Shown: piece after piece, positions 8,713 to 45,386 of the stretch
How positions within the stretch are numbered: the stretch's first letter is position 1
How the letters are laid out: every line of letters starts with the position of its first letter
NCBI GenBank assembly: GCA_963925895.1
Contig: CAWUVH010000007.1
Span: 7,957 to 71,956 of the forward strand
DNA length: 64,000 nucleotides
Reading direction: 5' to 3'
DNA from: an uncultured Burkholderiales bacterium
GTDB lineage: Bacteria > Pseudomonadota > Gammaproteobacteria > Burkholderiales > Eutrophovitaceae
Position numbers and translations under genes: made by a program
The notes under the pieces: model-generated
What the model saw: the letters and a program-made list of their open reading frames with translations, nothing else
The model's database searches: none
What the model was told of the DNA's origin: nothing

Positions 8713-9471
8713 ATGTCGGATCAACCACTGAAAGGTAAAATTGCCGTTGTCACTGGAGCCAGTCGCGGGCTTGGTCGAGCCATGGCCATTAGCCTCGCAG
8801 AGGCGGGCGCGTCTATTGCCTGCGTTGGAAGGAATGCAGAGAAGCTCTCTGAGACGAAGGCGCTTCTAGACAAGATTGGCGTAGAGTCAGATACGTTTAT
8901 TTGTGATGTTCGTTATGAAGATCAGGTCAACGATCTAGAAAAACAAGTCAGTAAGCGATTTGGGGCCATTCATATCTTAGTTAATAATGCCGGAACAGCC
9001 ATCCGTAAAAACCTCATCGAGTTTTCTTTGGAGGAATGGAACACGGTTTTAGATACTAATTTGACGGGCGTGTTTCTTTGCTCAAGAGCTTTCGTCCCTC
9101 ATATGAAAACGTATAAATGGGGTCGAGTGATCAACATCACTTCCATCATGGCGAACGTGGGCAGCATTGGGCGAGCTGCGTACTGCGCGTCCAAACATGG
9201 GGTCTTAGCCATTACTAAATCTATGGCTTTAGAGCACGCTGATGATGGCATTAATGTCGTGGCGATCAGCCCAGGTTTTTATGCGACAGACCTGACTGCA
9301 CCATTGAGGTCTGATTCGTCCAAAAGTGACGACTTGTTATCAAATGTACCCGCTCGTCGTTGGGGGGATCCGAAGGAGATTGGTGAGATTGCTAGATTTT
9401 TGTGCACTGATGCAGCTTCGTTTATAACCGGGACTGATATTTTGTCCGATGGTGGCTGGGTTGCGCAGTAA
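8713..9471 (+). CDS. Short-chain dehydrogenase/reductase (SDR)
   Basis: TGASRGLG cofactor motif, NNAG and YCASK catalytic motifs. Start moved to ATG 8713, which sits behind the GGGGAG RBS; the ORF-track start at 8617 is unlikely. Confidence 0.8.
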   Translation: MSDQPLKGKIAVVTGASRGLGRAMAISLAEAGASIACVGRNAEKLSETKALLDKIGVESDTFICDVRYEDQVNDLEKQVSKRFGAIHILVNNAGTAIRKNLIEFSLEEWNTVLDTNLTGVFLCSRAFVPHMKTYKWGRVINITSIMANVGSIGRAAYCASKHGVLAITKSMALEHADDGINVVAISPGFYATDLTAPLRSDSSKSDDLLSNVPARRWGDPKEIGEIARFLCTDAASFITGTDILSDGGWVAQ

Positions 9472-9506
9472 TTGTCTAAGGATTGACACGAGGAAGTTCT
9501 CATAAC

Positions 9507-31040: not shown

Positions 31041-32237
31041 ATGCCAGGCCCTCTTGACGGCGTCAAAATTCTAGATCTAACGTCTGTAGTCATGGGTCCT
31101 TTTGCGACCCAAATACTGGCGGAGTTAGGCGCGGAGGTGGTTAAGGTTGAGTCCTTCTCAGGTGATAATATGAGGGACGTTGGGCCTATGGCAAATCCTC
31201 ATATGGGGCATTTGCACTTACATTTAAATCGTGGGAAAAAGGGTATTGCTGTTGATTTGAAACATCCCTCTGGGATTGACGTCATTAAAAAGTTAATTCT
31301 GCGCAGTGACGTTTTAATTTACAACGTGAGACCAAATGCTATGGAGCGATTGGGTTTGGCTTACGATGATGTGAGTGCGCTGAACCCAAATATTATCTAC
31401 GTTGGTGCTTATGGGTACTCAGAAAATGGCCCTCGAGCGGGTCGGGCGGCTTACGATGACCTGATCCAAGGTAGCACTGGTGTGCCTTGGCTTGTTTCGA
31501 AGGAAGGTCGGGAAACACCTCGTTATGTGCCTCTTAATTTTGCAGACCGTGTGACTGGATTGCATGCTGTTTATGCCGTAACAGCAGCCTTATATCAGCG
31601 GGAGAAGTCGGGTCGAGGTCAATCGGTAGAGGTTCCTATGTTTGAGTCGATATCACACTTCGTGTTAGGGGACCACATGGCTGGCCTGAGTTTTCAACCT
31701 CCGATTGGACCTTCGGGCTATGAACGGCTAAAACACCGACGCGTTTATGAGACGAAAAATGGTTTTATTTGCGCCTTAGTTTATAACGAAGCGCAATGGA
31801 CTAGATTTTGGGCCGCCATGAATCGACCTGAAATGATGAATGATCCAAAGTTTATAACGCATTCTGCTCGAGCCACAAATATTGGTGAGATATATGATCT
31901 TCTATCAGAGATGATTAAAAATGAGGATACGGACTATTGGATGTCATTTTTTCAGGACGTTGATGTCCCTGTGGCTAAAATGAATACGGTAGACGACTTG
32001 TTGTCGGATGAGCATCTCCTAGAGACAGGGTTCTTCATCAATGAAGAACACCCAACTGAAGGCAGTTTGTACGCGACAAAGACGCCCAGCAATTGGTCTC
32101 ATTCGTCACCAGAGAGAGTCACTCCGGCGCCAACCTTGGGTCAACATACGCGAGAGGTGTTGAGCGAGCTCGCGTACAGTGAGGACCAAATTAATGACTT
32201 AATCCGGGCTGGCGCGGTTTCAGACGGATCATCCTGA
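31041..32237 (+). CDS. Family III CoA-transferase (CaiB/BaiF)
   Basis: N-terminus LDGVKILDLTSVVMGPFATQILAELGAEVVKVE is diagnostic for the family; 398 aa. Confidence 0.85.
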   Translation: MPGPLDGVKILDLTSVVMGPFATQILAELGAEVVKVESFSGDNMRDVGPMANPHMGHLHLHLNRGKKGIAVDLKHPSGIDVIKKLILRSDVLIYNVRPNAMERLGLAYDDVSALNPNIIYVGAYGYSENGPRAGRAAYDDLIQGSTGVPWLVSKEGRETPRYVPLNFADRVTGLHAVYAVTAALYQREKSGRGQSVEVPMFESISHFVLGDHMAGLSFQPPIGPSGYERLKHRRVYETKNGFICALVYNEAQWTRFWAAMNRPEMMNDPKFITHSARATNIGEIYDLLSEMIKNEDTDYWMSFFQDVDVPVAKMNTVDDLLSDEHLLETGFFINEEHPTEGSLYATKTPSNWSHSSPERVTPAPTLGQHTREVLSELAYSEDQINDLIRAGAVSDGSS

Positions 32238-32245
32238 CACTTTCT

Positions 32246-32641
32246 TTAGGATAGTTTAAACCCACCACCAGGGCCTCCGCCTGGATTTCCTCCTGGTATA
32301 CTCCCAGGCAAAACGATCGATGAAGCTTGTTCTCGTCGCATTTCTTGGAGCTCCTTAATTGCTTTTTCTACAGCAACTTTTCCAGCGTCACCATATTTTT
32401 CGACAGCTTCTGCTAATGACTTCGCTTCTATTTGAAATGCAATAGGAAGCGCCCCCATCGGCGTCATGATTTGGGTCTCTCCAGCATAAATCGTTTGTCG
32501 CTCAGGATCATCATCTCCGTTCGTGGTAATTGGATTTGATATGCGTATTGTGCCTACTTGCCGATCTGTGACGGTTTCTTCTCGGAACAAATTTGCTTGG
32601 TCCATGGCCAGCTCGTCAATTGATCTTTGTTCGTTAGCCAT
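32246..32641 (-). CDS. Hypothetical cytoplasmic protein with Gly/Pro-rich C-terminus
   Basis: AAGGAG RBS 7 nt upstream of the ATG. The 131-aa product ends PGSIPGGNPGGGPGGGFKLS. I recognise no family. Confidence 0.6.
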   Translation of the reverse strand: MANEQRSIDELAMDQANLFREETVTDRQVGTIRISNPITTNGDDDPERQTIYAGETQIMTPMGALPIAFQIEAKSLAEAVEKYGDAGKVAVEKAIKELQEMRREQASSIVLPGSIPGGNPGGGPGGGFKLS

Positions 32642-32783
32642 TAAATTACTCCTTGCAATAGTGGTTAAATTTTTCTATCAGCCATAAGGATATCAAAGGT
32701 TGGTAAGTTCGACAAAATACAACTTGGGTATCGAATGTTGGAGGGCTGAGTCTCGGGTGTGTGCACTGCATTTTATTAATAAT

Positions 32784-32811
32784 TTGACAGGTTCGTAAAA
32801 AGTGTTACATT
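32784..32811 (+). promoter_or_regulatory. Near-consensus sigma70 promoter with extended -10 and upstream AT-rich tract
   Basis: TTGACA (32784-32789), a 16-nt spacer ending in TGt, then TACATT (32806-32811). It is preceded by attttattaataa. The first downstream ORF start is about 350 nt away. Confidence 0.55.
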
Positions 32812-33168
32812 AATCAATACGAAGTAGAGCAAAGAACCACTTTGGGCTTAAATTCCGAGTCAGGCCCCTCAAAAAGTGATGGAGATTAGTGCTTATAGCG
32901 AGCTCGCTGCGTGACCAAAAAGCCCTCGGGATTACAGAAGACTTGGCAAAGATTTTTCCAGTCGTTCTTAAAATTTAAAAATGAATGAGCTAGGACGGAT
33001 TGTAACCGTAGAGCGGGGTATCAGTTATCAATGGGCTGCGATCGATTATTCAGTACCTCAGCTAGTTAAAGATTTTAAAAAATTTGTATGTTTGTTCATT
33101 GAACGTGGCAGCCCCTAATGTTAGGGACGCTCATGTTCTCCCCAATGTTCCTGTCAGTCGAGGTTTAG

Positions 33169-33924
33169 GTGTCAAGAAACAGCAGAGATTTTCGCTTCAA
33201 GAAAAAAAGTCCCCCTTCTGGGCAATCTGGAATTTCCGGACTCCAAAGTGGCCGATTGAAGATAGTATCGAATGCGCAAACCGGCATTAGTCGTGGTGTG
33301 CTTGATGCTGCGATTGAATTGGGTGCGGAATGCGGCGGAGCGTGTGCCGAGGGTCGAATGGCGGAGGATGGGTTCATCCCTGATAATTATCCGGTGGCCG
33401 AGTTGGTGGGAGAAGACACCAGTGAGAGCATTCGACAAAATGTTAAACAGAGTGACGGGACAGCGATTATTTATTTTCGCGATATTGAAGATGAACCCGA
33501 AGAGGCACTCGATTATTGTGTTCAACTTGGGAAACCATATCGCTTGATAGACGGTGGAGATCTCCAGTCAGGGCAAGCTGCGAAAGTTATTGCTGACTTC
33601 ATTAAAGACAAAGGCTTGATGACGCTTCATATTGTTGGCCCTAAGGCAAGTGCGTCTGATCGTGCTCATCGTTTCGGATATGAAGCGGTAGGTGCACTTC
33701 TTGGTCTGGGTCCAAAGCCGCGTAATCCATCGAGACCGCAAATGAGAAAGACAGGAGATGCTGGTTCGGGTGGTGATGGATCTTCGCGGGCTCCTTCGGG
33801 TGAGCAAGGTGGAAACGTAAGTGGAAAACCGAGTGAATCAAGGCCGTCTGGACAAAGGAGAAGGCGTGGGACAGGAAGACGGTCACCCCGAAAGCCTGCT
33901 GAATCCCAGCCGGATTTGACGTAA
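33169..33924 (+). CDS. SLOG-superfamily protein ('putative molybdenum carrier' family) with Arg/Gly/Ser-rich disordered tail
   Basis: Core is KIVSNAQTGISRGVLDAAIELGAECGGACAEGRMAEDG..P..YP..E......R...NV..SDGTAII. GTG start 5 nt after a GAGG RBS. A TTG at 33257 would give a shorter form. Confidence 0.6.
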   Translation: MSRNSRDFRFKKKSPPSGQSGISGLQSGRLKIVSNAQTGISRGVLDAAIELGAECGGACAEGRMAEDGFIPDNYPVAELVGEDTSESIRQNVKQSDGTAIIYFRDIEDEPEEALDYCVQLGKPYRLIDGGDLQSGQAAKVIADFIKDKGLMTLHIVGPKASASDRAHRFGYEAVGALLGLGPKPRNPSRPQMRKTGDAGSGGDGSSRAPSGEQGGNVSGKPSESRPSGQRRRRGTGRRSPRKPAESQPDLT

Positions 33925-33953
33925 CAACGTATTGAATTCGTTTTATCCCCAGC

Positions 33954-34310
33954 ATGACTAAGACTGGATTAAAAACGTTGGTTCTAGAGCTGAGAAAGTT
34001 CGCAAAGGATCGTGATTGGGAGCAGTTCCATAGTCCTAAGAATCTATCAATGGCATTGTCGGCCGAGGCAGGTGAGTTGCTGGAACATTTTCAGTGGCTC
34101 AGCGAGCCGGAATCCTCCCGACTCGATGAGTCCAAAAAGTTGGACGTATCTTTTGAGATGGCCGATATACTTTTATATCTAGTTCGATTGGCAGATGTGC
34201 TCGAGATTGACCTGATAGATGCTAGCCTTAAAAAAATATCGCTTAATCAAAAAAAATACCCTATAGCTTTGAGTAAGGGGACTAATAAAAAGTATACCGA
34301 GCTCAAGTGA
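33954..34310 (+). CDS. MazG-like nucleoside triphosphate pyrophosphohydrolase (single-domain, DCTPP1/YpjD type)
   Basis: RDWEQFHSPKNL..AL..EAGELLEHFQW and EMADILLYLVRLA...IDL...KI.LN.KKYP. Confidence 0.75.
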   Translation: MTKTGLKTLVLELRKFAKDRDWEQFHSPKNLSMALSAEAGELLEHFQWLSEPESSRLDESKKLDVSFEMADILLYLVRLADVLEIDLIDASLKKISLNQKKYPIALSKGTNKKYTELK

Positions 34311-34332
34311 GTTCAAGGCAGCCTATCTAGAT

Positions 34333-35169
34333 ATGTTCGCGTACAGACATTATTTTCATGCGGGTAACTTTGCTGATGTCTTTAAGCACGCCTTGCTGTC
34401 GCAATTAATCATCAGTTTTCAAAAAAAAGAGCGACCTATCGTATATGTGGATACACATGCAGGTTTGGGACGTTACGATTTGATGCACCCATGGGCAGAT
34501 AAAAACAAAGAGTTTAACCAGGGAGCGAGTCAAGTTTTTGACTCTGTTGATTACCCTACAGCTATGGAGCCTTATCTAAGAATACTTAATCTCAATAATG
34601 AGAATAGATTGCTCAGATGGTATCCAGGGTCTCCGGTTATTGCCCGTAGCTTATTGCGGCCGAAAGACCGTTTGGTCCTTAATGAATTCAATGTTTCAGA
34701 TGCAGAGCAATTGAGAGGGGTAGTCCGAGGATGGCCTAGAACTTCGGTTCGCAGTGAGGATGGGTTTTCTCTGACCAATTCCGTACTGCCGCCTGATGAG
34801 CGTCGAGGTCTGATCTTTATGGATCCTTCCTATGATCGTCCTGCAGAGTTTGATCGTGTTGCATCCTCTTTAGAACTTGGGCTAAAAAAGTTTTCAACCG
34901 GAGTCTTTGCAATTTGGTATCCCGTGATGAACGACGAAGTTACATTTCAGTTAATTCGAAAACTTAAGATGTGTGGGAATAAATTGATACTTCGAGCAGA
35001 GATTTGTCTGTCAAAAACTAAGTTTCCAGGCCTCATGAATGCATGTGGGGTTCTGATAGTTAATCCCCCTTACCAATTTGAAGTGCTTGTGGATGTGATT
35101 GGAGACTGGTTATTGTCAAGATTAGATTCGTCAGGAGAGGGCCGATTAATAAACCAATTAATTGATTGA
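34333..35169 (+). CDS. rlmJ: 23S rRNA (adenine2030-N6)-methyltransferase
   Basis: Collinear with E. coli RlmJ as remembered: YRHYFHAGNFADVFKH, DTHAG.GRY, YPGSP.IA, DPSY, WYPV and VNPPY. Confidence 0.85.
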   Translation: MFAYRHYFHAGNFADVFKHALLSQLIISFQKKERPIVYVDTHAGLGRYDLMHPWADKNKEFNQGASQVFDSVDYPTAMEPYLRILNLNNENRLLRWYPGSPVIARSLLRPKDRLVLNEFNVSDAEQLRGVVRGWPRTSVRSEDGFSLTNSVLPPDERRGLIFMDPSYDRPAEFDRVASSLELGLKKFSTGVFAIWYPVMNDEVTFQLIRKLKMCGNKLILRAEICLSKTKFPGLMNACGVLIVNPPYQFEVLVDVIGDWLLSRLDSSGEGRLINQLID

Positions 35170-35887
35170 GCGCGTGAGTATGAGGGCGTGCGCAAATATT
35201 TCTTCGTTAGTGCTCAAGCCTGGTGAGTGTTTAGCTATTCAGGATACTATTCAAGAGTATCTTTCTCGAACGGATTTTGTGTCTAGTTCTAACCTTAGAA
35301 CTAGATACTATGAAGCAACAGGCGCTCAAAATTCGGCAGATAGGGGAGCTGGGTTAGGCTCCGTTTTTCACCGATTGATGCTAGAAGAATCTGAGGATTT
35401 TGAGCTTGATCTGCCAACACTTAGAGGCGATTGGTTAGCTGGCGCTAAAAGACCTTCAGGTTATTGCTTAGGTCAATCTGACTTACATCGCATTAACGGA
35501 GCTCGAGAGAAACTTAATCATTGGTCCGAACATTTGTTTTCTAAATGGGTCAAGTCTGGGCAAGCGGAGACCTCAATCTATTGGAAAGACGAGTTATGTT
35601 GCCAGTGGCGCGCAAGACCGGACCTTGTTACTCAGGATCTTGTTGTCGATTTGAAAACATTTTCCGGAAAGAACCAAAAACGATTTCTTAAAAGTCGTGA
35701 TCGTAATGGCTATCTTATTCAGGCTGGACTGTACTTAGAGGCTCTTAGGCGTTTAAACGACAGGCCGATTGGGTTTGCTTTTTTGTGTATTGATTTGACT
35801 CCACCGTTTCATATCCGATTAGATGTTTTAGACAAGGCGCAGATCGTTTTGGCTCAGAATTTGATTTGCCAATTGAAAAACCAGTAA
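35162..35887 (+). CDS. PD-(D/E)XK nuclease, RecE/DUF3799-like
   Basis: Core is E.SIYW...RARPDLV...LVVDLKT...YLIQAGLY, which gives the D, (D/E)xK and QxxxY motifs. Start is uncertain: TTG 35162, GTG 35174 or ATG 35180. Confidence 0.6.
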   Translation: MIERVSMRACANISSLVLKPGECLAIQDTIQEYLSRTDFVSSSNLRTRYYEATGAQNSADRGAGLGSVFHRLMLEESEDFELDLPTLRGDWLAGAKRPSGYCLGQSDLHRINGAREKLNHWSEHLFSKWVKSGQAETSIYWKDELCCQWRARPDLVTQDLVVDLKTFSGKNQKRFLKSRDRNGYLIQAGLYLEALRRLNDRPIGFAFLCIDLTPPFHIRLDVLDKAQIVLAQNLICQLKNQ

Positions 35888-35933
35888 CTAGCAGGGGTGA
35901 TGTGGGGGCAGGTTAGTTAATGAGTCGTCTGGG

Positions 35934-37946
35934 TCAGAATTCGAAGTATTGATCTTTGATGGGCCACTGCCCCTTATGGGTCCTCCCCGTTTTGCTGACC
36001 GACAGCCAAGAGTACTTCCCATAATGACGGGCGCGCCTAATGAGCAGTGCTAGCTTCTCTTCCGTCACGGATGCGGTGATGCCAATCATTAAGGTAGGGG
36101 TATCTGAGATGTTTGTCGATACCATGAGAAATTCCGAATCCACCTTGTCGGCTAACTCATCAAAGTCTATTGCGCCACCCAATTTATTAAGGCGTTCAAT
36201 AATTTCATGAACCCCCCCGAAAACGATCGTGATGTTGTTTTCCTGATTGTTAAATTTATAACGATGTTTCTCTTTTATTTGATGCTCAAGGAAATGACTT
36301 GATATTAGTTCTGAGCCATCAATAATATTTGGATCTAATTGGATATAGATGGGGTGTTTTGCAACTACAAAATCACGTAGAGTACTTACTCTCTCATGAG
36401 GGTATAGCTCTCGCCAAACATTAAAATTAGGATCTACTTTGACGCGAAGAGAGTCATGTTTAATATCGGGCAGATTCAGTTTCGTCGACCTGTCGGTTAT
36501 GAGCGACGTGTGGCTGTGTGTCTGCTCTTGTGATGAGATCTCAACATCCAGAGCAAAGATCCACTCCCCGTTTTGACTGGCAGATAGTTGTGGTTTAGAT
36601 GATGCGTCGTGGCCTAACTCTATACGAATCCTTGGTGCGCCCACAGTTGGAATCCATGCGTCGAAAAATGTTGTCAGATCGATTGAGGTGTGTTTTTGAC
36701 AAGTATCTCGAATGTCATGAAAGCCTGCTGAGTCAAATTGGTACTGGAGCCAGAATTCTTGAAGACAGGTTATGAATTGAGAATCTCCGATTAGGTTCCT
36801 CAACATGTGAAAAACCATTGCACTTTTTCCGTAGCCTATAGTTGATGATGCCGTGTGATACCTTGAGGTGAAGTTATGAAGAGATCGTTCATCCTCATTA
36901 GAGATCGATGTGTAGTCCCTGAGCCACCCATAGCGCATCTCCTTGGCAAGTTCTTTATTGGTTAGCTCAGTTTGCCAATAATCCGCTAAATACGTAGTGA
37001 GTCCCTCTGACCAATTGCCTGAAGGGTACGTCGGTTGAATGCCGTTACCCCACCAGTTGTGGACTATCTCATGCGGCAATGAACGATTTTTGATAAACGG
37101 ATACTTTAATATTTTCTCGCTCAAATACGTTAAAGAAGGCATACCTAGTCCTGTTGGAAAGGGGCTGGATACAACAGTAAAGCTGGAGTAAGGATAGGGA
37201 CCAATGAGCTTCTCGTAAAAGTTTATGTAACGTTCACAAAGTGTCAAATATTCCTCGGATAAATTGCGATTTCCTTCGTTAAAGTAGGTTTGAATAGTAA
37301 TTTCTTTGTTCAGCCCAGATATCACTTTTTTGTTGACAACCCAAGCGCCTATCATCAAGTCTATTCCGACGATAGGTTGAGGCATGTCAAATACGCTGAA
37401 TTGATAACGGTCTTGTTCTCTTCGCTCAGCTTGTAAGCCGGGCGCAATTGCTAATAACCCTCGTGCTGTTTTAACTGTCAGATGCGTCGTGCTGGCTTTG
37501 TTGAAAAATGGATACCAAATTCTACTGCCAGGTAAGAAAGCTCCTGAGGCGCTTCCTGACCAATCTACGCGACCAGACATGTCAGCCATTACGCCTGGTT
37601 CGTTTGATTCAGGCAGCATTAAGGAATACTTGATTGTTACAGAGGTTTCTCTCTGTCCGTTATTGAGAGAGAAGATGTGCGTGTCAATTGATTGGGATAC
37701 TGCGACTGCGAGAGGGCGTGCTGTATCTACAGAATGTAGCGTTACATCTTTTGATAAAAAGAATTTTGGTGAGTGTGGTGAAAGGTTGGTTGTGGCTTGG
37801 ATGTGTACTTGTCTCGTATGTTCCTCATATGTGATATCAAGGACTACGTGAGGTACTTCAGTTGCAAGAACTTGTAATGAGCTGCATCCAAGGGTTAAGG
37901 TTAAGAACCAAACGCCTAGGTCTAGGCGAATTCGAGAAAATTTCAT
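35934..37946 (-). CDS. Secreted M1-family zinc metallopeptidase (aminopeptidase N-like)
   Basis: HEIVHNWWGN followed by WSEGLTTY (HExxH-x18-E gluzincin signature). N-terminal signal with possible lipobox LTLGC. Confidence 0.8.
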   Translation of the reverse strand: MKFSRIRLDLGVWFLTLTLGCSSLQVLATEVPHVVLDITYEEHTRQVHIQATTNLSPHSPKFFLSKDVTLHSVDTARPLAVAVSQSIDTHIFSLNNGQRETSVTIKYSLMLPESNEPGVMADMSGRVDWSGSASGAFLPGSRIWYPFFNKASTTHLTVKTARGLLAIAPGLQAERREQDRYQFSVFDMPQPIVGIDLMIGAWVVNKKVISGLNKEITIQTYFNEGNRNLSEEYLTLCERYINFYEKLIGPYPYSSFTVVSSPFPTGLGMPSLTYLSEKILKYPFIKNRSLPHEIVHNWWGNGIQPTYPSGNWSEGLTTYLADYWQTELTNKELAKEMRYGWLRDYTSISNEDERSLHNFTSRYHTASSTIGYGKSAMVFHMLRNLIGDSQFITCLQEFWLQYQFDSAGFHDIRDTCQKHTSIDLTTFFDAWIPTVGAPRIRIELGHDASSKPQLSASQNGEWIFALDVEISSQEQTHSHTSLITDRSTKLNLPDIKHDSLRVKVDPNFNVWRELYPHERVSTLRDFVVAKHPIYIQLDPNIIDGSELISSHFLEHQIKEKHRYKFNNQENNITIVFGGVHEIIERLNKLGGAIDFDELADKVDSEFLMVSTNISDTPTLMIGITASVTEEKLALLIRRARHYGKYSWLSVSKTGRTHKGQWPIKDQYFEF

Positions 37947-39214: not shown

Positions 39215-39709
39215 TTATTCTGTTGGATCAGTTGGGGTTGTTGATTTAAGCACTCCGGACTCCCTAGCATTAATCTTTTCATGTATAAAATCTCGATGAG
39301 CTACATACAATAAATCCGATATTTTTCGAATGATATGGTCCTCATTTGGGTCAACGTAATTATCAGAATGAGCCACTGACCACATGGCTTTTATAAGCGC
39401 GCACTTTTGCCCATACGAGAATTGCTCGTTAATGATTTTTGCAAGTGGATGGTATGCGGTGGGCCGATTTTGGGGTTGTGATGCTTCAATTAAAAGTTGA
39501 TCGGCCTCTGCTTTACTGATTCTAATGAGATGTCGCAGTGATTCTGCAGCTATCTCTAAATCTTTATTTGTTACGTCAGCATCAACTCGAGCGGCTTCGT
39601 AGAGTAGAGAAGCCAGTGCGCGACTAATGTCAGTTGGCGCCAAGTTATCATTGGAGTTCGTTGATCTCGAATCAAGTAATCGAGAAATTCTTTTAATAAA
39701 TTGCATCAT
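39215..39709 (-). CDS. TerB-family (tellurite-resistance TerB/DjlA-N-like) protein
   Basis: The 164-aa helical protein has LLYEAARVDADV...E and MW.VAHSDN.VDP.EDHIIRKISDLL, typical of TerB-domain proteins. Confidence 0.65.
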   Translation of the reverse strand: MMQFIKRISRLLDSRSTNSNDNLAPTDISRALASLLYEAARVDADVTNKDLEIAAESLRHLIRISKAEADQLLIEASQPQNRPTAYHPLAKIINEQFSYGQKCALIKAMWSVAHSDNYVDPNEDHIIRKISDLLYVAHRDFIHEKINARESGVLKSTTPTDPTE

Positions 39710-39818: not shown

Positions 39819-42800
39819 ATGAAAAAACATATCAAAATTAGAGGGGCAACTCAAAATAATCTTAAGAATATTGATCTAGATTTGCCTCTGGGAGAAGTGA
39901 TTGCGGTCACTGGATTGTCTGGGTCAGGTAAGTCTTCCCTTGTTTTTGATACGCTCTATGCGGAAGGTCAAAGACGGTATGTGGAGACTTTCTCGTCTTA
40001 TGCCAGACAATTTCTCGATCGAATGGATCGTCCGTCGGTTGCGAGTATCGAGGGTATTCCTCCAGCTATCGCTATTCACCAAGTTAACTCAGTTAAGACA
40101 TCGCGTTCTACCGTTGGCACGATGACCGAATTGGCCGATTACTTGAAGTTACTGTTTGCTAAATACGCAAGCCTCTATTGCCGAAGCTGTACGCAACCTA
40201 TTGAGATTGATGATGTCGACAGCATTATTATTGTGCTTCGTGATAAGGGGTGGAGTCGAGTTGTGGTATCCGCGCCAGTTATGGTCCCGGATAATTTTAC
40301 GAGAGAAGAGATAGAGGGGTATCTGAAAGCGCAGGGATATGACCGTTTCATTGAATTGATGGGGCAAACACATGTGATTATTGATCGTTTTGATATCAAT
40401 CGTGTCGAAGATACGAGGGTGAGAGAGGGGCTAGAGGCAGCATTCCGGATAGGACAAGGTAAATGCTCAGCCACACTTCACGCAAAGGGGGAAGCGCCAG
40501 GTGTCCCCTTAACTTTTAGTAATCGTTTTCATTGTGCTGGCTGTGATATCGATTACTCGCCGCCGAGCCCGGGACTTTTCTCGTTCAATTCGCCCGTTGG
40601 TGCTTGCTCGACCTGTCGTGGATTTGGTCGCGTGATTGGTGTGGACATGGATTCTGTTGTTGTAGACCCTAAACTATCTCTTTCTGAGGGCGTGATACGA
40701 CCATGGCAGACAGATAGTTATTCCGGGTCTCAAGATGACCTCATCGAATACGCGCAGCGACAAGGTGTGCCTCTGAATATGCCTTGGTGTGAGATGTCCG
40801 ATACGCACAAACAATGGGTTTTAGAGGGAGAGCCAGAATGGGTCAGTTGGCGCAAGTCGTGGCCCAAATATTGGTATGGGGTCAGACACTTTTTTGATTG
40901 GCTCGAGACAAAAGCATACAAAATGCACATTCGAGTGCTCCTCGCGAAGTACCGTTCATATTCGTCTTGTCCAGCTTGTCATGGGAGTCGTTTAAAACCC
41001 AATGCCCTGCTTTGGCGAATCGGTTTTGCTAAGAGCTCGGTGAATCTTTTTGAACATCCAGAGCTGGATTGGACTCTAGAGCAATTGAAATCAATCAAGG
41101 GGTTATCAATACATCAGTTGAATACCTTACCTATTTGGGATTTAAAGCGATTTATCAATGAAGAAAAAGAAAGCTGGCAAAGAGGCCGCAAAGATGAATC
41201 AAGCCAGTTGGTTCTCGATCAAATCATATCCAGATTAGAGTTCCTTGAAGAGGTGGGTTTGGGTTACTTGACGCTGGATAGACAGTCTAGAACGCTATCA
41301 GGAGGTGAGACCCAACGGCTAAATTTGGCGACAGCGTTAGGCGCGTCTCTGACTCAAACTTTGTTTTTGCTGGATGAGCCGTCCATTGGTTTGCACCCTA
41401 GAGATGTGGATAGAATTATCACTGTAATTCAGAGGCTTAGAAACAATGGCAATACGATCGTAGTTGTTGAGCACGATCCACAAATCATACGATCTGCTGG
41501 TTTTTTGCTCGATATCGGGCCAGGAGCAGGAGAGGGTGGTGGCCATGTTGAGTTTTTTGGACGTAGCCGGGACCTTACGTCAAGCTCTGGGCTTACGGCT
41601 CAATATCTCTTGGGTGAGCGGACAATCGGTGACTCGGTAGAAGGAAAGCCAATTAAATCGTCTCAAACGCAGTGGCTGAGCGTTTTAGGTGCTTGCCGTA
41701 ATAATCTTAAGCATATTGATGTGGATATTCCGCTTGGGCATCTGGTCGCTATTACAGGAGTCTCCGGATCTGGAAAGTCGACTCTCGTAGAGGACACCCT
41801 ATTTAGGGAGATGACCCGAAATTTAACAGGTCGGGGGATTGCTGATGATGGTTTACGCGGTTTTAGTAATTTACATCTCATTGACCGCGTGATCATGCTT
41901 GATCAAAGACCAATTGGTAAATCGTCACGTTCTAATCCATTGAGTTACGTCGGTGCTCTCGATCCTATTCGAGACATCTTCGCAGCCTCCGCAGGCGCAC
42001 GCCAAGGTAAATATGACAAGAGCTATTTCAGTTTTAATGCGGGCAAAGGGCGGTGTCAAACTTGTTTGGGTAGTGGATTCGAACTGGTAGAGATGCAGTT
42101 TCTATCCGATGTATATCTGCGCTGTAACGAATGTGATGGTAAGAGATATGGCTCGGATATTTTGAAGATTGAGATCGATTTACCAACCGTAGGTATGGTG
42201 AATATTGACGATGTTCTAAACCTAACAATATCTGAGGCAATTCAGACCTTTAACCAGGTGCCAAAAGTGTGTCGCAAGTTACAGCCGCTAATTGATGTCG
42301 GCCTGGGCTACCTGAGACTTGGACAACCTGTGCCGACGCTATCTGGGGGGGAGGCTCAGAGGCTAAAACTTGCCAGTTATATCTCTGAAGCTTCAAGCCA
42401 GTCGGTTGATAAAACACTTTTTTTACTCGATGAACCAACAACTGGACTTCACTTTCATGATATCCAAAAATTACTGCTGGCACTGCGAGCACTCGTAAAC
42501 CTTGGGGCTTCGGTAGTTATGGTGGAGCATAATCTCGACTTGATTGCAGCCTCTGATTGGATTGTCGACTTAGGTCCAGAGGGTGGGGATGGGGGTGGTC
42601 AGGTCGTCTCATTCGGTGCGCCTGAGGATGTATGTGCAGATCCATCGTCTTTAACAGGGCGTGAGTTAAGTCGTGAAGATAGCAGAGCAAGCTACGAGCA
42701 GATGAATAGACAGATCACTCTGGATGAAAAAGCTCGCGACTCATTTCCAAGTGCGATCTCAATCAGGAATGCCAGAGAAAATAACTTGAAAAATATTAGC

Positions 42801-45386
42801 TTAGATATTCCTCACGAAAAATTGACAGTGATCACCGGTCTTAGTGGCAGCGGGAAATCCTCTTTAGCGTTTGACATTATTTACGGTGAAGGTCAGAGAC
42901 GTTATTTGGAGTCGTTGAATGCCTACGCTAGGCAATTTATCCAAGTAGGGAAAAAGCCCGATGTGGACGCGGTGTATGGTATTCCTCCAGCAGTAGCCAT
43001 TGAGCAACGTACCAGTCGAGGTGGGATTAAAAGTACTGTGGGAACGGTAACAGAGACGTACCATTATTTACGCTTATTGATGTCCAAGATCGGTGATCAA
43101 TTTTGTCCTGATTGTCAGGTGAAAATCAAGCCGCAAACACGGACCGCAATTGTAGATCGCCTCTTACAAGATTATACCGGTCGCCATATTGGTTTTTTAT
43201 CACCTTTGGTTCGTGCAAGAAAGGGTGTGTATAAGGAGTTGGCTGAGACTTATCGAAAGAAAGGTTTTGCACACCTATTGGTTGATAACGTTTTTGTGGC
43301 GACAGGTGATTTTCCAGCCTTAGATAGATATGTGGAACATACTATTGAGCTTCCAGTCGCTAGTATTAATGTGTCTGATTCTCTGCGTGTTGAGTTGATG
43401 GATATTGTTGAGTCAGCTTTGAATTATGGAGATGGATTTTTTCATGTCATCTCTGATATTGATACCTTGTTAGAAGGTGGTGCTTTTGGCCAGGAAAGTT
43501 TTTCCATTAAGCGCGCCTGCCCTTCTTGCCAAAAATCATTCGATGAGCTTGATCCGCGTCTATTTTCCTTTAATTCAAAATATGGATGGTGTGAGCCTTG
43601 TCAGGGAACAGGTCAGTTCCAAGATGTAAAGATAAGTGTTGTAAGGCATCTCAAGGATGAAATTGAGGCGGAAGCTGAGAGAGCTAAACATACGCACGAC
43701 CCGGCGGGTGTGATCTGCGAATCCTGTGATGGATATCGTTTGAACCAACAAGCGGTGAGTGTTTTTTGGAATGATCTTTCTATCTCGGATTTGGTTTCTA
43801 CTCCTGTGGGTTCGTTGCATCAGATACTTTTAGACATCACGCTTACCTCGCGTGAACAATTGATCGCAAAGGATTTACTTGGCGAAGTTTTGTCCCGATT
43901 AAAATTCATGACTGAGGTTGGTCTGTCTTATCTCACTTTAAATCGATCTGCCCCCACGCTCAGCGGTGGAGAGGCTCAGAGAATGCGGCTGTCAGCCCAA
44001 CTGGGTTCAAACTTAAGAGGTGCTGTCTATGTTCTAGATGAACCTACGATTGGTCTTCACCCGAGAGATAATGAAGCCTTACTGCGCACATTAAAAAATT
44101 TACAAAATAAGGGCAATACTCTTGTTGTTGTTGAGCACGATGAAGATACGATTATTCAGGCAGATTTTGTGGTTGATCTGGGGCCAGGAGCAGGTAGCGA
44201 AGGGGGGCACATCATTGCGTCGGGTTCGCCTGAGGAGATCATGCTTGATGCGTCTTCAATTACGGGCCAATATTTGAAATCGCCCAAGCATTACTCCCCG
44301 ACTGGAGAAAGACGTGTTGATCAATCTTCTGAATTTTTATGTATTAAATCAGCGGTACGTAACAACCTCAAAGGCGTGGATGTACGTATACCGATTGGTT
44401 GTTTGACGGTAGTAACGGGAGTCTCTGGCAGTGGTAAATCTAGTCTGATTAGAGGGGTGTTGCGTGAGAATATGGATAGACTGATGATAGAGGGTGTATC
44501 CGTCAATCATAATGCACCTTTTTCTAATTGTTCAGGTATCACTGGCTTCGAGCGTGTTTCCAAAGTCATAGAAGTAGATCAGAATCCGATCGGTAAAACA
44601 TCACGCTCATGCCCTGCAACTTATACTGGGATTTGGGATGATGTAAGAACACTTTTTGCATCCACAACCGAAGCCCGTATCCGAGGTTTTGGTGCGCCTC
44701 GGTTTTCGTTTAATACAAAGGGTGGACGATGTGAAGGTTGTGAAGGTCAAGGAATACAAAAAATAGAGATGAACTTTTTACCTGATGTGCGATCAATTTG
44801 CGAGGTTTGTGGTGGCGATCGATTTAGTAAAGACACATTACAGATTAGGTATAACAGTCATTCGATAGCCGATGTTTTAAATCTCAGCATTAAAGACGCA
44901 CTGGAGCTTTTCAGCGCTCATCCTCGTATTAAGAAAAAACTTAAATTACTCAACGAGCTTGGTTTGGGGTACTTAACACTGGGGCAGCACAGTAGTACTT
45001 TGTCTGGGGGTGAGGCTCAAAGAATTAAGCTTGTTTCGGAGCTCTCCAAGTTTAGCGTTGATGCAGAGGGCCTATTGGCCAAGAAGAGTCATGAAACAAC
45101 GCTCTTCGTTCTTGATGAACCTACTGTTGGCTTGCATATGGCCGATGTCGAAAAATTAATTGATACACTCACGCGTTTAGCGGACGTGGGTGGTACGGTT
45201 GTGGTTATTGAGCACAATATTGATCTGATCAGCAGTGCAGATTGGGTCATTGACTTAGGCCCGGAAGGGGGAGACAGTGGTGGATACCTTATGTTTGAGG
45301 GGCAGGCTGTTGATTTGGCCCAAAAAGACCATTCGGCTACAGGTCTTGCGTTAAAAAAGTTATATAAGAAATTAAAAAAATCCTAA
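39819..45386 (+). CDS. Tandem-duplicated UvrA-like ABC ATPase (two complete UvrA units in one 1855-aa polypeptide)
   Basis: Four Walker A loops: GLSGSGKS at nt 39912 and 42837, GVSGSGKS at nt 41757 and 44418. There are also four LSGGE(T/A)QR signatures and two CxxC-x19-CxxC zinc modules. Confidence 0.85.
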   Translation: MKKHIKIRGATQNNLKNIDLDLPLGEVIAVTGLSGSGKSSLVFDTLYAEGQRRYVETFSSYARQFLDRMDRPSVASIEGIPPAIAIHQVNSVKTSRSTVGTMTELADYLKLLFAKYASLYCRSCTQPIEIDDVDSIIIVLRDKGWSRVVVSAPVMVPDNFTREEIEGYLKAQGYDRFIELMGQTHVIIDRFDINRVEDTRVREGLEAAFRIGQGKCSATLHAKGEAPGVPLTFSNRFHCAGCDIDYSPPSPGLFSFNSPVGACSTCRGFGRVIGVDMDSVVVDPKLSLSEGVIRPWQTDSYSGSQDDLIEYAQRQGVPLNMPWCEMSDTHKQWVLEGEPEWVSWRKSWPKYWYGVRHFFDWLETKAYKMHIRVLLAKYRSYSSCPACHGSRLKPNALLWRIGFAKSSVNLFEHPELDWTLEQLKSIKGLSIHQLNTLPIWDLKRFINEEKESWQRGRKDESSQLVLDQIISRLEFLEEVGLGYLTLDRQSRTLSGGETQRLNLATALGASLTQTLFLLDEPSIGLHPRDVDRIITVIQRLRNNGNTIVVVEHDPQIIRSAGFLLDIGPGAGEGGGHVEFFGRSRDLTSSSGLTAQYLLGERTIGDSVEGKPIKSSQTQWLSVLGACRNNLKHIDVDIPLGHLVAITGVSGSGKSTLVEDTLFREMTRNLTGRGIADDGLRGFSNLHLIDRVIMLDQRPIGKSSRSNPLSYVGALDPIRDIFAASAGARQGKYDKSYFSFNAGKGRCQTCLGSGFELVEMQFLSDVYLRCNECDGKRYGSDILKIEIDLPTVGMVNIDDVLNLTISEAIQTFNQVPKVCRKLQPLIDVGLGYLRLGQPVPTLSGGEAQRLKLASYISEASSQSVDKTLFLLDEPTTGLHFHDIQKLLLALRALVNLGASVVMVEHNLDLIAASDWIVDLGPEGGDGGGQVVSFGAPEDVCADPSSLTGRELSREDSRASYEQMNRQITLDEKARDSFPSAISIRNARENNLKNISLDIPHEKLTVITGLSGSGKSSLAFDIIYGEGQRRYLESLNAYARQFIQVGKKPDVDAVYGIPPAVAIEQRTSRGGIKSTVGTVTETYHYLRLLMSKIGDQFCPDCQVKIKPQTRTAIVDRLLQDYTGRHIGFLSPLVRARKGVYKELAETYRKKGFAHLLVDNVFVATGDFPALDRYVEHTIELPVASINVSDSLRVELMDIVESALNYGDGFFHVISDIDTLLEGGAFGQESFSIKRACPSCQKSFDELDPRLFSFNSKYGWCEPCQGTGQFQDVKISVVRHLKDEIEAEAERAKHTHDPAGVICESCDGYRLNQQAVSVFWNDLSISDLVSTPVGSLHQILLDITLTSREQLIAKDLLGEVLSRLKFMTEVGLSYLTLNRSAPTLSGGEAQRMRLSAQLGSNLRGAVYVLDEPTIGLHPRDNEALLRTLKNLQNKGNTLVVVEHDEDTIIQADFVVDLGPGAGSEGGHIIASGSPEEIMLDASSITGQYLKSPKHYSPTGERRVDQSSEFLCIKSAVRNNLKGVDVRIPIGCLTVVTGVSGSGKSSLIRGVLRENMDRLMIEGVSVNHNAPFSNCSGITGFERVSKVIEVDQNPIGKTSRSCPATYTGIWDDVRTLFASTTEARIRGFGAPRFSFNTKGGRCEGCEGQGIQKIEMNFLPDVRSICEVCGGDRFSKDTLQIRYNSHSIADVLNLSIKDALELFSAHPRIKKKLKLLNELGLGYLTLGQHSSTLSGGEAQRIKLVSELSKFSVDAEGLLAKKSHETTLFVLDEPTVGLHMADVEKLIDTLTRLADVGGTVVVIEHNIDLISSADWVIDLGPEGGDSGGYLMFEGQAVDLAQKDHSATGLALKKLYKKLKKS

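What the first reader, a model, noticed from the sequence alone, without database searches (positions are those of the whole stretch)
33169..35887. Compact four-gene cassette: SLOG/MoCo-carrier-like protein, MazG-like pyrophosphohydrolase, RlmJ and a RecE-type PD-(D/E)XK nuclease
Seen: four same-strand ORFs separated by 29 nt, 22 nt and an 8-nt overlap (a 10-nt gap if ATG 35180 is the true start). Upstream lies a 527-bp ORF-free gap and downstream a convergent gene, so they look like one transcription unit. ORF1 has the 'putative molybdenum carrier'/SLOG Rossmann core (KIVSNAQTGISRG...GGACAEGRMAEDG...SDGTAII). ORF2 is a single-domain MazG (EAGELLEHFQW...EMADILLYLVRLA). ORF3 is collinear with E. 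coli RlmJ as remembered. ORF4 has the D...(D/E)xK...QxxxY nuclease core (RPD, VVDLKT, QAGLY). Established: SLOG/LOG domains bind or cleave nucleotides (LOG N-glycosidases, the ThsA SLOG sensor). MazG enzymes hydrolyse non-canonical (d)NTPs. RlmJ writes m6A2030 in 23S rRNA. Inference: this is a nucleotide-centred module. One option is sanitation of modified (for example N6-methyl) nucleotides released by rRNA turnover. Another is a nucleic-acid surveillance or conflict cassette built around a housekeeping methyltransferase. I know of no described system with this composition.
Basis: partly seen in the sequence, partly recalled or inferred. Interest (0 to 1): 0.6.

Follow-up and report, generated by a model that had tools for sequence, protein, structure and literature searches.

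The report
Housekeeping operon around a mazG–rlmJ pair
Four tightly packed genes (a SLOG nucleotide-binding protein, a dCTP-pyrophosphatase-like enzyme, the ribosomal-RNA methylase RlmJ and a RecE-like nuclease) form a real operon-like unit in one group of uncultured Burkholderiales, but only the pyrophosphatase–RlmJ pair is conserved widely, and nothing marks the unit as an immune system.

Summary
The four same-strand ORFs lie at the stated coordinates, with gaps of 29 nt and 22 nt and an 8-nt overlap (or a 10-nt gap). All four family assignments hold: cpYpsA SLOG, DCTPP1-type MazG, RlmJ and a RecE/DUF3799 nuclease.

The four-gene set occurs in only one Burkholderiales lineage (UBA3031, TMED22, 'Ca. 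Eutrophovita'). In that lineage the whole ~16-kb neighbourhood is equally syntenic.
- None of 16 distant cpYpsA loci has any of the three partner genes nearby.
- Of 85 non-lineage RlmJ loci, none has cpYpsA and one has DUF3799.

The tight spacing is ordinary for this genome, where the median same-strand gap is 24 nt.

The mazG-like→rlmJ pair is widely conserved. It occurs in 22 of 31 non-lineage metagenomic or MAG loci whose RlmJ is ≥40% identical to the window's, and the flanking genes differ between them. Some of these loci also carry an Mrr-type PD-(D/E)XK gene or a NUDIX gene.

PADLOC finds nothing. A near-invariant σ70-type promoter and a ~350-nt leader precede ORF1.

Verdict: a housekeeping operon built up around an old mazG–rlmJ pair. 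A role in nucleotide or nucleic-acid clean-up is plausible but unproven. Interest is moderate.

The parts
32784..32811 (+). Sigma-70-type promoter: TTGACA, 16-nt spacer, TACATT with an extended-10 TG
   Evidence: Predicted (10 of 12 matches, TG present). Most positions of the -35/-10 block are invariant across 8 lineage members, including the most divergent ones, L013 and L030. It is the only + strand promoter-like site found in 32200-36200.
32818..33168 (+). Inferred ~350-nt 5' leader with conserved sequence blocks. One block, GACCAAAAAGCCCTCGGGA at 32913-32931, is complementary to the ORF1 Shine-Dalgarno and start region (33155-33171).
   Evidence: Conserved blocks appear in alignment A3. 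RNAalifold pairs the box with the SD and start. nhmmer finds the leader only in the cassette lineage. The structural evidence is weak: no Rfam match, MFE z = +0.71, and a duplex no better than shuffled leaders.
33169..33924 (+). ORF1: a cpYpsA-family SLOG protein. The core is residues ~24-180. It has a lineage-specific basic N-terminal extension and a ~70-aa disordered tail that ends in a conserved Arg-rich motif (GxRRRxxxGRRxxRxKP).
   Evidence: PF12694 at 8e-31. Profile match to PDB 3IMK at 2.5e-44. AF2 core against 3IMK: TM 0.86, rmsd 2.1 A. The tails have pLDDT below 50. The start and tails are conserved down to 53% identity. The SD GAGG lies at 33160-33163. The canonical GGQTG(A)D loop reads NAQTGIS.
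33954..34310 (+). ORF2: a single-domain all-alpha NTP pyrophosphatase of the DCTPP1/RS21-C6 type
   Evidence: PF12643 at 4e-11. PDB 2A3Q/6SQW at 1.3e-23. The metal ligands, the Trp47/Trp73 sandwich, His51, Asp98 and Tyr129 are conserved, while His38 is Leu (pocket residues from PMC13291643).
34333..35169 (+). ORF3: an orthologue of the 23S rRNA m6A2030 methyltransferase RlmJ
   Evidence: PF04378 at 3e-61. Collinear with E. coli RlmJ 4BLU over residues 1-271 at 1e-62. Y4, H6, K18, H19, H42, S100, E118, D143, D164 and W195 are invariant (residue roles from PMC3814359). Motif IV reads DPSY.
35162..35887 (+). ORF4: a RecE/DUF3799-type PD-(D/E)XK exonuclease. The likely true start is ATG 35180.
   Evidence: PF12684 at 2e-12. 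phrog_412 'exonuclease VIII' at 6e-25. The AF2 model (pLDDT 79.6) matches 3L0A and RecE 3H4R at E 5e-7. H64, E130, D148, (D/E)-L-K159, Q181 and Y185 are invariant.
32246..32641 (-). Divergent 131-aa neighbour with no known family. It shares the 527-nt control region with the cassette. Whether it belongs to the unit is uncertain.
   Evidence: No Pfam, NCBIfam, PADLOC or PHROGs hit. It is conserved in every lineage locus. Homologues also sit directly upstream of RlmJ, divergently oriented, in outgroup loci L037 and L038.

Best explanation
This is a chromosomal housekeeping operon, not a mobile or defence module. It grew by accretion around an old two-gene unit, mazG-like then rlmJ.

Shown:
- One conserved sigma-70-type promoter (32784-32811) sits about 360 nt upstream of four closely spaced same-strand genes.
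- RlmJ keeps every residue known to be needed for m6A2030 formation.
- The MazG-like protein has the catalytic and deoxyribose-binding residues of DCTPP1 but a changed base filter (His38 to Leu).
- The mazG-like then rlmJ pair is kept in most Burkholderiales-like loci despite unrelated flanks.
- cpYpsA (upstream) and the RecE-type nuclease (downstream) are joined to the pair only in the UBA3031/TMED22/Eutrophovita lineage.

Inferred mechanism:
- The operon co-expresses the rRNA m6A writer with enzymes that clean up nucleotide and nucleic-acid turnover products.
- The RecE-like 5'-3' exonuclease degrades nucleic acid to mononucleotides.
- The DCTPP1-like enzyme hydrolyses non-canonical, probably base-methylated, dNTPs to dNMPs so that they are not re-incorporated.
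- The SLOG protein binds or cleaves a nucleotide derivative. Its disordered Arg-rich tails may tether it to RNA or to ribosomes.
- Expression may be set post-transcriptionally through the long leader.
For: Operon architecture:
- Spacers are 29, 22 and -8/+10 nt in the window. They stay small in relatives, between a 29-nt overlap and a 40-nt gap.
- The promoter is near-invariant in 8 lineage members.

Housekeeping nature:
- The flanks carry infA, a CoA-transferase, ChaN and a UvrA-like gene, and are syntenic throughout the lineage.
- The cassette proteins diverge at rates similar to their neighbours.
- PADLOC returns no hit.
- The same cassette is seen in contigs from many metagenomes.

The pair:
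- 22 of 31 non-lineage loci with RlmJ at 40% identity or more have the pair. Only 1 of 46 loci below 40% does.
- RlmJ proteins from pair-bearing loci are diverse, with a median pairwise identity of 61%.
- The 64 flank ORFs of 20 pair-bearing loci match 55 different Pfam families.
- Two named Burkholderiales MAGs carry both genes on one strand: L115 with a 3-nt spacer, and L114 with pqiABC inserted between them.
- ORF2 is 52% identical to an outgroup MazG.

Nucleotide and nucleic-acid theme around the pair:
- DUF3799 lies near RlmJ in L031.
- An Mrr_cat PD-(D/E)XK gene lies upstream of the pair in 5 loci, and a NUDIX gene lies downstream in 5 loci.
- DeoC lies upstream of the pair in L032.

Enzyme integrity.

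Precedent for sanitising methylated nucleotides: DCTPP1 acting on 5-methyl-dCTP (PMC13291643, PMC7162842) and MTH1 acting on N6-methyl-dATP (PMC7152754).
Against: - No transcript data exist, and no biochemical activity has been shown for any of the four proteins.
- Within the lineage, synteny of the cassette cannot be separated from synteny of the whole region.
- Tight spacing is typical of this 93%-coding genome.
- cpYpsA has no recurrent partner anywhere else, so its functional tie to the others rests on one lineage.
- The loci carrying Mrr_cat and NUDIX form one RlmJ subgroup (64-89% identical), so these may be a single evolutionary event.
- 9 of 31 close outgroup loci lack the pair.
- The leader shows no thermodynamic or clear covariation signal.
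- I could not check whether these genomes hold a second rlmJ copy.
Confidence: 0.6

Rival explanations
1. Synteny without function. The four genes are unrelated housekeeping genes that happen to sit together in a streamlined genome. Even the mazG-like-rlmJ pair would be only inherited gene order plus convenient co-transcription, with no shared pathway.
For: - The whole ~16-kb region is as syntenic as the cassette.
- The median same-strand gap in the window is 24 nt.
- Traces of ancestral Burkholderiales gene order persist around rlmJ: the acyl-CoA synthetase C0, the up131 homologue C1 and TerB.
- cpYpsA is unlinked to the other genes elsewhere.
- rRNA-modification genes often share operons with unrelated genes (general knowledge).
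Against: - The pair survives in 22 of 31 diverse loci whose flanks are otherwise unrelated (55 Pfam families among 64 flank ORFs).
- Two different PD-(D/E)XK nuclease families and a NUDIX gene recur beside it.
- An adjacent gene (the M1 peptidase) has been lost in L001 and L002 while the cassette stayed intact.
Confidence: 0.22
2. One reading: a system that sanitises N6-methyl-adenine nucleotides. RlmJ-made m6A is released by rRNA turnover. The MazG-like enzyme removes N6-methyl-(d)ATP. The SLOG protein and the nuclease process the products.
For: - An m6A writer and a house-cleaning NTP pyrophosphatase are conserved as an adjacent pair.
- The cytosine-selective His38 of DCTPP1 is replaced by Leu or Ile in every rlmJ-linked MazG, so base preference may differ from cytosine.
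- Mrr-type (methyl-DNA-dependent family) nuclease genes lie beside the pair in 5 loci.
- There are eukaryotic precedents: MTH1 on N6-methyl-dATP and the N6-mAMP deaminase.
Against: - The rest of the pocket (Trp sandwich, His51, Phe41, Phe50, Tyr129) and the deoxyribose-contacting Asp98 are DCTPP1-like. That favours pyrimidine dNTPs.
- RlmJ makes one m6A per 23S rRNA, a small flux.
- Most Gammaproteobacteria-like RlmJ loci lack the pair.
- There are no biochemical data.
Confidence: 0.12
3. An anti-phage or nucleic-acid conflict cassette, with the SLOG protein as sensor or signal processor, the PD-(D/E)XK protein as nuclease effector, and MazG depleting nucleotides.
For: - SLOG domains of the YpsA clade, MazG-like enzymes and PD-(D/E)XK nucleases all occur in described conflict systems (PMC9503650, PMC6459960).
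- The ORF2 and ORF4 families are also found in phages (PHROGs).
Against: - None of the four proteins has a PADLOC hit.
- The unit has a fixed position in a conserved core-genome context across the lineage. The cassette itself shows no presence/absence variation.
- Base composition is not anomalous.
- RlmJ is a catalytically intact housekeeping orthologue.
- cpYpsA elsewhere shows no such partners.
Confidence: 0.04
4. A DNA-catabolism or deoxynucleotide-salvage module related to the old YhiR 'use of DNA as a nutrient' phenotype. The exonuclease would release dNMPs, and MazG, SLOG and (elsewhere) DeoC would feed deoxyribose and bases into metabolism.
For: - The RlmJ homologue 2OO3 was deposited as 'protein involved in catabolism of external DNA'. 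The yhiR/DNA-nutrient link is cited in PMC3814359.
- DeoC lies immediately upstream of mazG-rlmJ in L032.
- A RecE-type exonuclease is present.
Against: - PMC3814359 calls the 2OO3 annotation a mis-annotation and shows that RlmJ is inactive on ssDNA.
- DeoC adjacency was seen once.
- No uptake or competence genes lie nearby.
Confidence: 0.06

Closest known systems
E. coli RlmJ (YhiR), the 23S rRNA m6A2030 methyltransferase (PDB 4BLU)
   Same: ORF3 is collinear over residues 1-271 (E 1e-62). All of the mutationally defined residues Y4, H6, K18 and D164 are present, as are the cofactor ligands.
   Different: - It is about 39% identical to the E. coli enzyme.
- Motif IV reads DPSY rather than DPPY. 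Most of the Burkholderiales RlmJ proteins retrieved read DSSF.
- It sits in an operon with a DCTPP1-like gene, which E. coli-type loci lack.
Mammalian DCTPP1 / RS21-C6 (PDB 2A3Q, 2OIG, 6SQW)
   Same: ORF2 is a single all-alpha MazG domain (E 1e-23). The EExxE...ExxD metal ligands, the Trp47/Trp73 sandwich, His51, Asp98 and Tyr129 are conserved.
   Different: - The selectivity-filter residue His38 is Leu or Ile in ORF2 and in every rlmJ-linked homologue.
- The protein is bacterial and 118 aa long, without the eukaryotic N- and C-terminal extensions.
- The substrate is unknown.
RecE exonuclease VIII C-terminal domain and DUF3799 (PDB 3H4R, 3L0A)
   Same: ORF4 has the same fold (Foldseek E 5e-7, TM about 0.6) and the H...E...D...(D/E)xK...QxxxY active-site constellation.
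   Different: - It is a stand-alone protein of 235-241 aa.
- It has no RecT/ERF annealase partner and no prophage context.
- It is chromosomal and vertically inherited in this lineage.
cpYpsA SLOG family (PF12694; PDB 3IMK 'putative molybdenum carrier'), together with B. subtilis YpsA and the Thoeris ThsA SLOG domain
   Same: ORF1 has the same Rossmannoid SLOG core (TM 0.86 to 3IMK). The conserved GR..E.G and N..DGT motifs are retained.
   Different: - The Gly-rich loop GGQTGAD reads NAQTGIS.
- ORF1 has a basic N-terminal extension and a ~70-aa disordered Arg-rich tail that the two distant family members in the alignment lack.
- It has no SIR2, TIR or PRTase partner.
- No function is known for any cpYpsA protein.
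Eukaryotic sanitation of epigenetically modified nucleotides (DCTPP1 on 5-methyl-dCTP; MTH1 on N6-methyl-dATP; the N6-mAMP deaminase)
   Same: The concept is the same: a house-cleaning NTP pyrophosphatase handles methylated nucleotides released by nucleic-acid turnover.
   Different: Here the link is only genomic, namely adjacency to an m6A writer. No activity has been shown, and the enzymes are encoded in one bacterial operon.

Membership tests
RlmJ (PF04378) | Full-length collinear similarity to characterised RlmJ | tested here: met
   PF04378 at 3e-61. E. coli RlmJ 4BLU aligns over residues 1-271 at E 1e-62.
RlmJ (PF04378) | Catalytic and motif X residues Y4, H6, K18 and D164 (required in vitro; PMC3814359) | tested here: met
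   All are invariant columns in alignment A2, which includes the window protein.
RlmJ (PF04378) | Canonical motif IV, DPPY | tested here: inconclusive
   The window protein reads DPSY. Of 120 RlmJ hits, 97 read DSSF. The catalytic Asp is kept, so this is normal family variation.
RlmJ (PF04378) | Methylates A2030 of 23S rRNA | not testable with these tools
   Needs an in vitro assay on helix 72 RNA, or mass spectrometry of rRNA.
DCTPP1/RS21-C6-type all-alpha NTP pyrophosphatase (PF12643) | MazG metal-binding motif EExxE...ExxD | tested here: met
   The equivalents of E63, E66, E95 and D98 are conserved in ORF2 and in all linked homologues.
DCTPP1/RS21-C6-type all-alpha NTP pyrophosphatase (PF12643) | Cytosine pocket: the Trp47/Trp73 sandwich plus the His38/His51 selectivity dyad | tested here: not met
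   W47, W73 and H51 are conserved, but H38 is Leu or Ile in the window protein, in 9 of 9 lineage sequences and in 23 of 24 outgroup sequences (the last has a gap at that column). Pocket definition from PMC13291643. Substrate identity with DCTPP1 therefore cannot be assumed.
RecE/DUF3799 PD-(D/E)XK exonuclease (PF12684) | Family profile match and fold | tested here: met
   PF12684 at 2e-12. phrog_412 at 6e-25. Foldseek matches 3L0A and 3H4R at E 5e-7.
RecE/DUF3799 PD-(D/E)XK exonuclease (PF12684) | Active-site motif D...(D/E)xK...QxxxY | tested here: met
   D148, K159, Q181 and Y185 are invariant, and the residue at position 157 is D or E. The motif aligns to the RecE motif.
RecET-type phage recombination module | An adjacent single-strand annealing protein (RecT, ERF or Red-beta) and a prophage context | tested here: not met
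   The neighbours are RlmJ and an M1 peptidase. No annealase or phage genes appear in the annotated loci.
cpYpsA SLOG (PF12694) | Family profile match and SLOG Rossmannoid fold | tested here: met
   PF12694 at 8e-31. 3IMK at 2.5e-44 by profile and TM 0.86 by structure.
cpYpsA SLOG (PF12694) | Canonical Gly-rich nucleotide loop, S-G-G-Q-T-G-A-D | tested here: not met
   The lineage reads S/T-N-A-Q-T-G-I/V-S/G/T (one member, P0023, reads A-N-G-Q-S-G-I-A). The distant members and 3IMK read GGQTGAD/E. Ligand specificity may therefore differ.
Known anti-phage defence systems (PADLOC; Thoeris-like SLOG systems) | A match to defence-system protein models, with partner effectors (SIR2, TIR and others) | tested here: not met
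   No PADLOC hit for ORF1-4 or for up131. No SIR2 or TIR genes are nearby.
Known anti-phage defence systems (PADLOC; Thoeris-like SLOG systems) | Location in a variable or mobile island, with patchy presence among relatives | tested here: not met
   The cassette is present at the same locus in every lineage contig examined. There is no compositional anomaly.
Single operon | Same strand, with short spacers conserved among relatives | tested here: met
   Such spacing is also the genome's norm.
Single operon | A single upstream promoter and one continuous transcript | not testable with these tools
   A conserved promoter-like site lies at 32784-32811. Transcript data are needed.

The most novel reading that the evidence does not exclude
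The widely conserved mazG-like-rlmJ pair may be a bacterial counterpart of eukaryotic sanitation of modified nucleotides. In this reading, a DCTPP1-derived pyrophosphatase with a re-tuned base filter (His38 to Leu) removes methylated (deoxy)nucleotide triphosphates that arise from turnover of methylated rRNA or DNA. In this lineage the unit would have expanded into a complete turnover pathway, made of a RecE-like exonuclease, the pyrophosphatase and a SLOG nucleotide N-glycosidase or sensor tethered to RNA. A new leader RNA would control it.
Probability: 0.12. Interest if true: 0.7.

Novelty: new variant of a known kind. Interest (0 to 1): 0.35.

Why it matters
If the mazG-like–rlmJ linkage is functional, it would be the first indication that bacteria couple an rRNA base-methyltransferase with a dedicated nucleotide-pool sanitiser. 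The fate of modified nucleotides after RNA turnover has only recently been addressed in eukaryotes.

The finding also gives the uncharacterised cpYpsA SLOG family a concrete genomic context, although only in one lineage. It flags an undescribed conserved leader upstream of the operon.

If the linkage is not functional, the finding is an ordinary housekeeping gene cluster in a streamlined genome.

Tried and rejected
- Rfam (gathering thresholds on the whole window; E ≤ 1 on the gap) and tRNA scans found nothing relevant.
- PADLOC found no defence models.
- I looked for Rosetta-stone fusions. The long RlmJ hits P0108 and P0090 carry only the RlmJ domain. The long MazG-containing ORFs in L041, L042 and L061 carry only a C-terminal MazG domain.
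- I suspected that the DPSY motif IV marked an aberrant RlmJ. I rejected this because most Burkholderiales RlmJ proteins read DSSF.
- Structured-leader or riboswitch idea:
  - The RNAalifold covariation term is unfavourable.
  - The MFE z-score is +0.71.
  - In 46-175 of 200 shuffles, the shuffled leader gave an anti-SD duplex at least as stable.
  - What remains is sequence conservation, a duplex at the same relative position in 5 of 9 members, and a few coordinated changes.
- The 45-aa ORF in the leader (32981-33118) is not conserved in frame. L009 has a 1-nt indel there.
- Neighbours of the 16 distant cpYpsA genes showed only taxon-limited synteny.
- tblastn of RlmJ against PLSDB returned only hits below 40% identity (listed rows: Alpha- and Gammaproteobacteria); none was useful for context.
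- I noticed a partial resemblance between the leader (CTCGCTGYG) and the E. coli 23S sequence just 5' of A2030, recalled from memory. I did not pursue it. The stretch is poorly conserved in the lineage, and no 23S sequence of this organism was available.

Full report
**Observation**

The spacers are 29 nt, 22 nt and an 8-nt overlap. If ATG 35180 is the ORF4 start, the overlap becomes a 10-nt gap. Gene callers and all relatives use that start.

The 527-nt gap upstream holds only short, unconserved ORFs. It is the largest intergenic gap in the window. The downstream gene is a convergent M1 peptidase.

The compactness is not distinctive. The window is about 93% coding, its median same-strand gap is 24 nt, and 59% of such gaps are 30 nt or less.

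**What the four proteins are**

*ORF1*
- It is a cpYpsA-family SLOG protein: PF12694 at 8e-31, and a profile match to PDB 3IMK at 2.5e-44.
- The AF2 core superposes on 3IMK with TM 0.86 and rmsd 2.1 Å.
- Relative to the two distant cpYpsA members in alignment A1 it has a basic 30-residue N-terminal extension. It also has a ~70-residue tail of low predicted confidence that ends in a conserved Arg-rich motif.
- The canonical GGQTGAD loop reads NAQTGIS.

*ORF2*
- It is a DCTPP1/RS21-C6-type all-α pyrophosphatase, with E 1.3e-23 to the mouse enzyme.
- I mapped the pocket described for DCTPP1 (PMC13291643) onto ORF2. The metal ligands, the Trp47/Trp73 sandwich, His51, Phe41, Phe50, Tyr129 and the deoxyribose-contacting Asp98 are all conserved.
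- The selectivity-filter residue His38 is Leu or Ile in ORF2 and in every rlmJ-linked homologue.

*ORF3*
- It is collinear with E. coli RlmJ over residues 1-271 (E 1e-62).
- It keeps Y4, H6, K18 and D164, the residues shown to be essential (PMC3814359).
- Its DPSY motif IV falls within normal family variation. Of the 120 RlmJ hits examined, 97 read DSSF.

*ORF4*
- It is a RecE/DUF3799 PD-(D/E)XK nuclease: PF12684 at 2e-12 and phrog_412 'exonuclease VIII' at 6e-25.
- The AF2 model (pLDDT 79.6) matches 3L0A and RecE 3H4R at E 5e-7.
- The motif H…E…D…(D/E)xK…QxxxY is invariant.

**Is the four-gene set a recurrent module?**

No.
- Word-indexed searches over 5.8 billion proteins found only 27 ORF1 relatives and 11 ORF4 relatives, nearly all from one lineage.
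- Contigs carrying ORF1 homologues of 53-93% identity all keep the four genes. They also keep the entire ~16-kb neighbourhood: acyl-CoA synthetase, methyltransferase, infA, CoA-transferase, a 131-aa protein, then the cassette, then M1 peptidase, ChaN-PDZ, TerB and a UvrA-like gene.
- These contigs come from MAGs named Betaproteobacteria UBA3031 and TMED22, 'Burkholderiales bacterium' and 'Candidatus Eutrophovita brisbanensis'.
- Across this lineage the cassette proteins diverge at rates similar to their neighbours. ORF4 diverges fastest.
- Within-lineage synteny therefore says nothing specific about the cassette.

Outside the lineage the set falls apart.
- A scan of one genome per species with a cpYpsA alignment returned 16 distant cpYpsA loci from Verrucomicrobia, Planctomycetes, Desulfobacterota and Gamma- and Betaproteobacteria. 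None has a detectable relative of ORF2, ORF3 or ORF4 within ±6 kb.
- Their neighbours share nothing beyond taxon-limited synteny.

**The conserved core**

I then used RlmJ as the anchor. RlmJ identity drops from at least 52% inside the lineage to about 46% in other Burkholderiales. Three outgroup contigs showed different arrangements:
- RlmJ, then a CBS enzyme, then DUF3799 (L031)
- DeoC, then MazG-like, then RlmJ (L032)
- RlmJ alone (L033)

A metagenome scan then gave 80 more RlmJ loci. I scanned all their ORFs with HMMs built from the cassette proteins.
- A MazG-like gene lies immediately upstream of rlmJ on the same strand in 22 of 31 non-lineage loci that have RlmJ at 40% identity or more and enough upstream sequence. 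The spacers are mostly 0-211 nt.
- Below 40% identity the pair occurs in 1 of 46 loci.
- DUF3799 occurs in none of the 80 metagenome loci.
- cpYpsA occurs in only one of them, which belongs to the lineage itself.

The pair-bearing loci are diverse, and the pair persists through rearrangement.
- RlmJ pairwise identity among them has a median of 61%. Only one of 276 pairs exceeds 90%.
- GC content ranges from 0.44 to 0.70.
- The 64 flank ORFs match 55 different Pfam families.
- Two named Burkholderiales MAGs carry both genes on one strand. L115 has a 3-nt spacer. In L114 (Pelomicrobium) a pqiABC block is inserted between them.
- ORF2 is 52% identical to an outgroup rlmJ-linked MazG. ORF4 is 28% identical (E 3e-26) to the L031 DUF3799.
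- No paper in the searchable library mentions both RlmJ and MazG.

**Other recurrent neighbours**

Two neighbours recur beside outgroup pairs:
- An Mrr_cat protein lies upstream on the same strand in 5 loci. This is a different PD-(D/E)XK nuclease family.
- A NUDIX hydrolase lies downstream in 5 loci.

The Mrr_cat loci form one RlmJ subgroup of 64-89% identity, so they may record a single event. Even so, nucleases and nucleotide hydrolases are the only functionally themed neighbours that recur. The acyl-CoA synthetase, TerB and the 131-aa protein also recur. That shows an old Burkholderiales gene order around rlmJ.

**Control region**

- The gap contains a σ70-type promoter, TTGACA-16-TGtTACATT, at 32784-32811.
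- Most positions of the promoter are invariant in all eight lineage members aligned, including the most divergent ones. This implies a leader of about 350 nt.
- The leader has conserved blocks. One of them, 32913-32931, is complementary to the ORF1 SD and start.
- Support for a structured RNA is weak:
  - There is no Rfam match.
  - The MFE z-score is +0.71.
  - The duplex is no stronger than in shuffled leaders.
  - In its favour, the best duplex falls at the same relative position in 5 of 9 members, with a few coordinated changes.
- The leader is confined to the lineage.

**Interpretation**

The best-supported reading is a housekeeping operon assembled by accretion around an ancient mazG-like–rlmJ pair. 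Evidence for housekeeping status:
- a fixed core-genome position
- no PADLOC hits
- no compositional anomaly
- a catalytically intact RlmJ
- presence of the cassette in many metagenomes

What the operon does is inference. I propose that it co-expresses the rRNA m6A writer with clean-up of nucleotide and nucleic-acid turnover products.
- The exonuclease would produce mononucleotides.
- The DCTPP1-like enzyme would remove non-canonical dNTPs.
- The SLOG protein would bind or cleave a nucleotide derivative.

It is not favoured, because the rest of the pocket is cytosine-type. The conflict-system option is not supported.

The main rival is that adjacency here carries no shared function beyond co-transcription.

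**Scores**

The components all belong to known families, and the four-gene composition is specific to one lineage. The mazG-like–rlmJ pairing appears to be undescribed and is moderately interesting. I rate the finding a new variant of a known kind, with interest 0.35.

Noticed in passing
window 32784-33168 (+): A near-invariant sigma-70-type promoter is followed by a ~350-nt leader with conserved blocks. One block (32913-32931) is complementary to the ORF1 SD and start. The leader has no Rfam match and no thermodynamic signal, and it is confined to the cassette lineage. It may be an undescribed cis-regulatory leader.
   Followed up: partly
window 32246-32641 (-); L037:4482-4913, L038:4044-4472: A 131-aa protein with no family match in Pfam, NCBIfam, PADLOC or PHROGs is transcribed divergently from the cassette. 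Homologues also sit directly upstream of rlmJ in two outgroup loci that lack mazG. An invariant AAGGATATCAAA (32686-32697) lies in its upstream region.
   Followed up: partly
L034, L048, L054, L055, L056 (upstream of mazG-rlmJ); L047, L048, L054, L055, L063 (downstream): In one subgroup of outgroup loci, an Mrr_cat PD-(D/E)XK protein of roughly 300 aa precedes the mazG-rlmJ pair on the same strand. In an overlapping set of outgroup loci a NUDIX hydrolase lies downstream. This parallels the nuclease association seen in the window.
   Followed up: partly
RlmJ hits P0039-P0158; window 34822-34833: Motif IV of RlmJ is DSSF in most (97 of 120) of the RlmJ hits examined and DPSY in the cassette lineage, against DPPY in E. 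coli. The 'DPPY' signature is therefore not conserved in the family.
   Followed up: yes
L114:5-4843: In a Pelomicrobium MAG, a pqiA-pqiA-pqiB-pqiC block has been inserted between mazG-like and rlmJ, all on one strand.
   Followed up: no
L038:4473-5000: The gap between the up131 homologue and rlmJ is filled by two long inverted arrays of short repeats (GTGCGAGGTACGAGG... and its complement). They would form a very long hairpin.
   Followed up: no
L001:10774-10982, L002:9625-9833: The M1 peptidase that lies convergent to the cassette in the window is reduced to short remnants in the relative whose ORF1 is 85% identical. The cassette next to it is intact.
   Followed up: no
L007:5929-7138 and 9164-10001: In one 'Ca. 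Eutrophovita'-like MAG, both the CoA-transferase and rlmJ are split into two ORFs. These are frameshifts caused either by assembly error or by pseudogenisation.
   Followed up: no
window 39819-45386 (+) and 39215-39709 (-): A 1855-aa UvrA-like protein with duplicated ABC ATPase and UvrA domains lies next to a TerB-domain gene. Both are conserved throughout the lineage.
   Followed up: no
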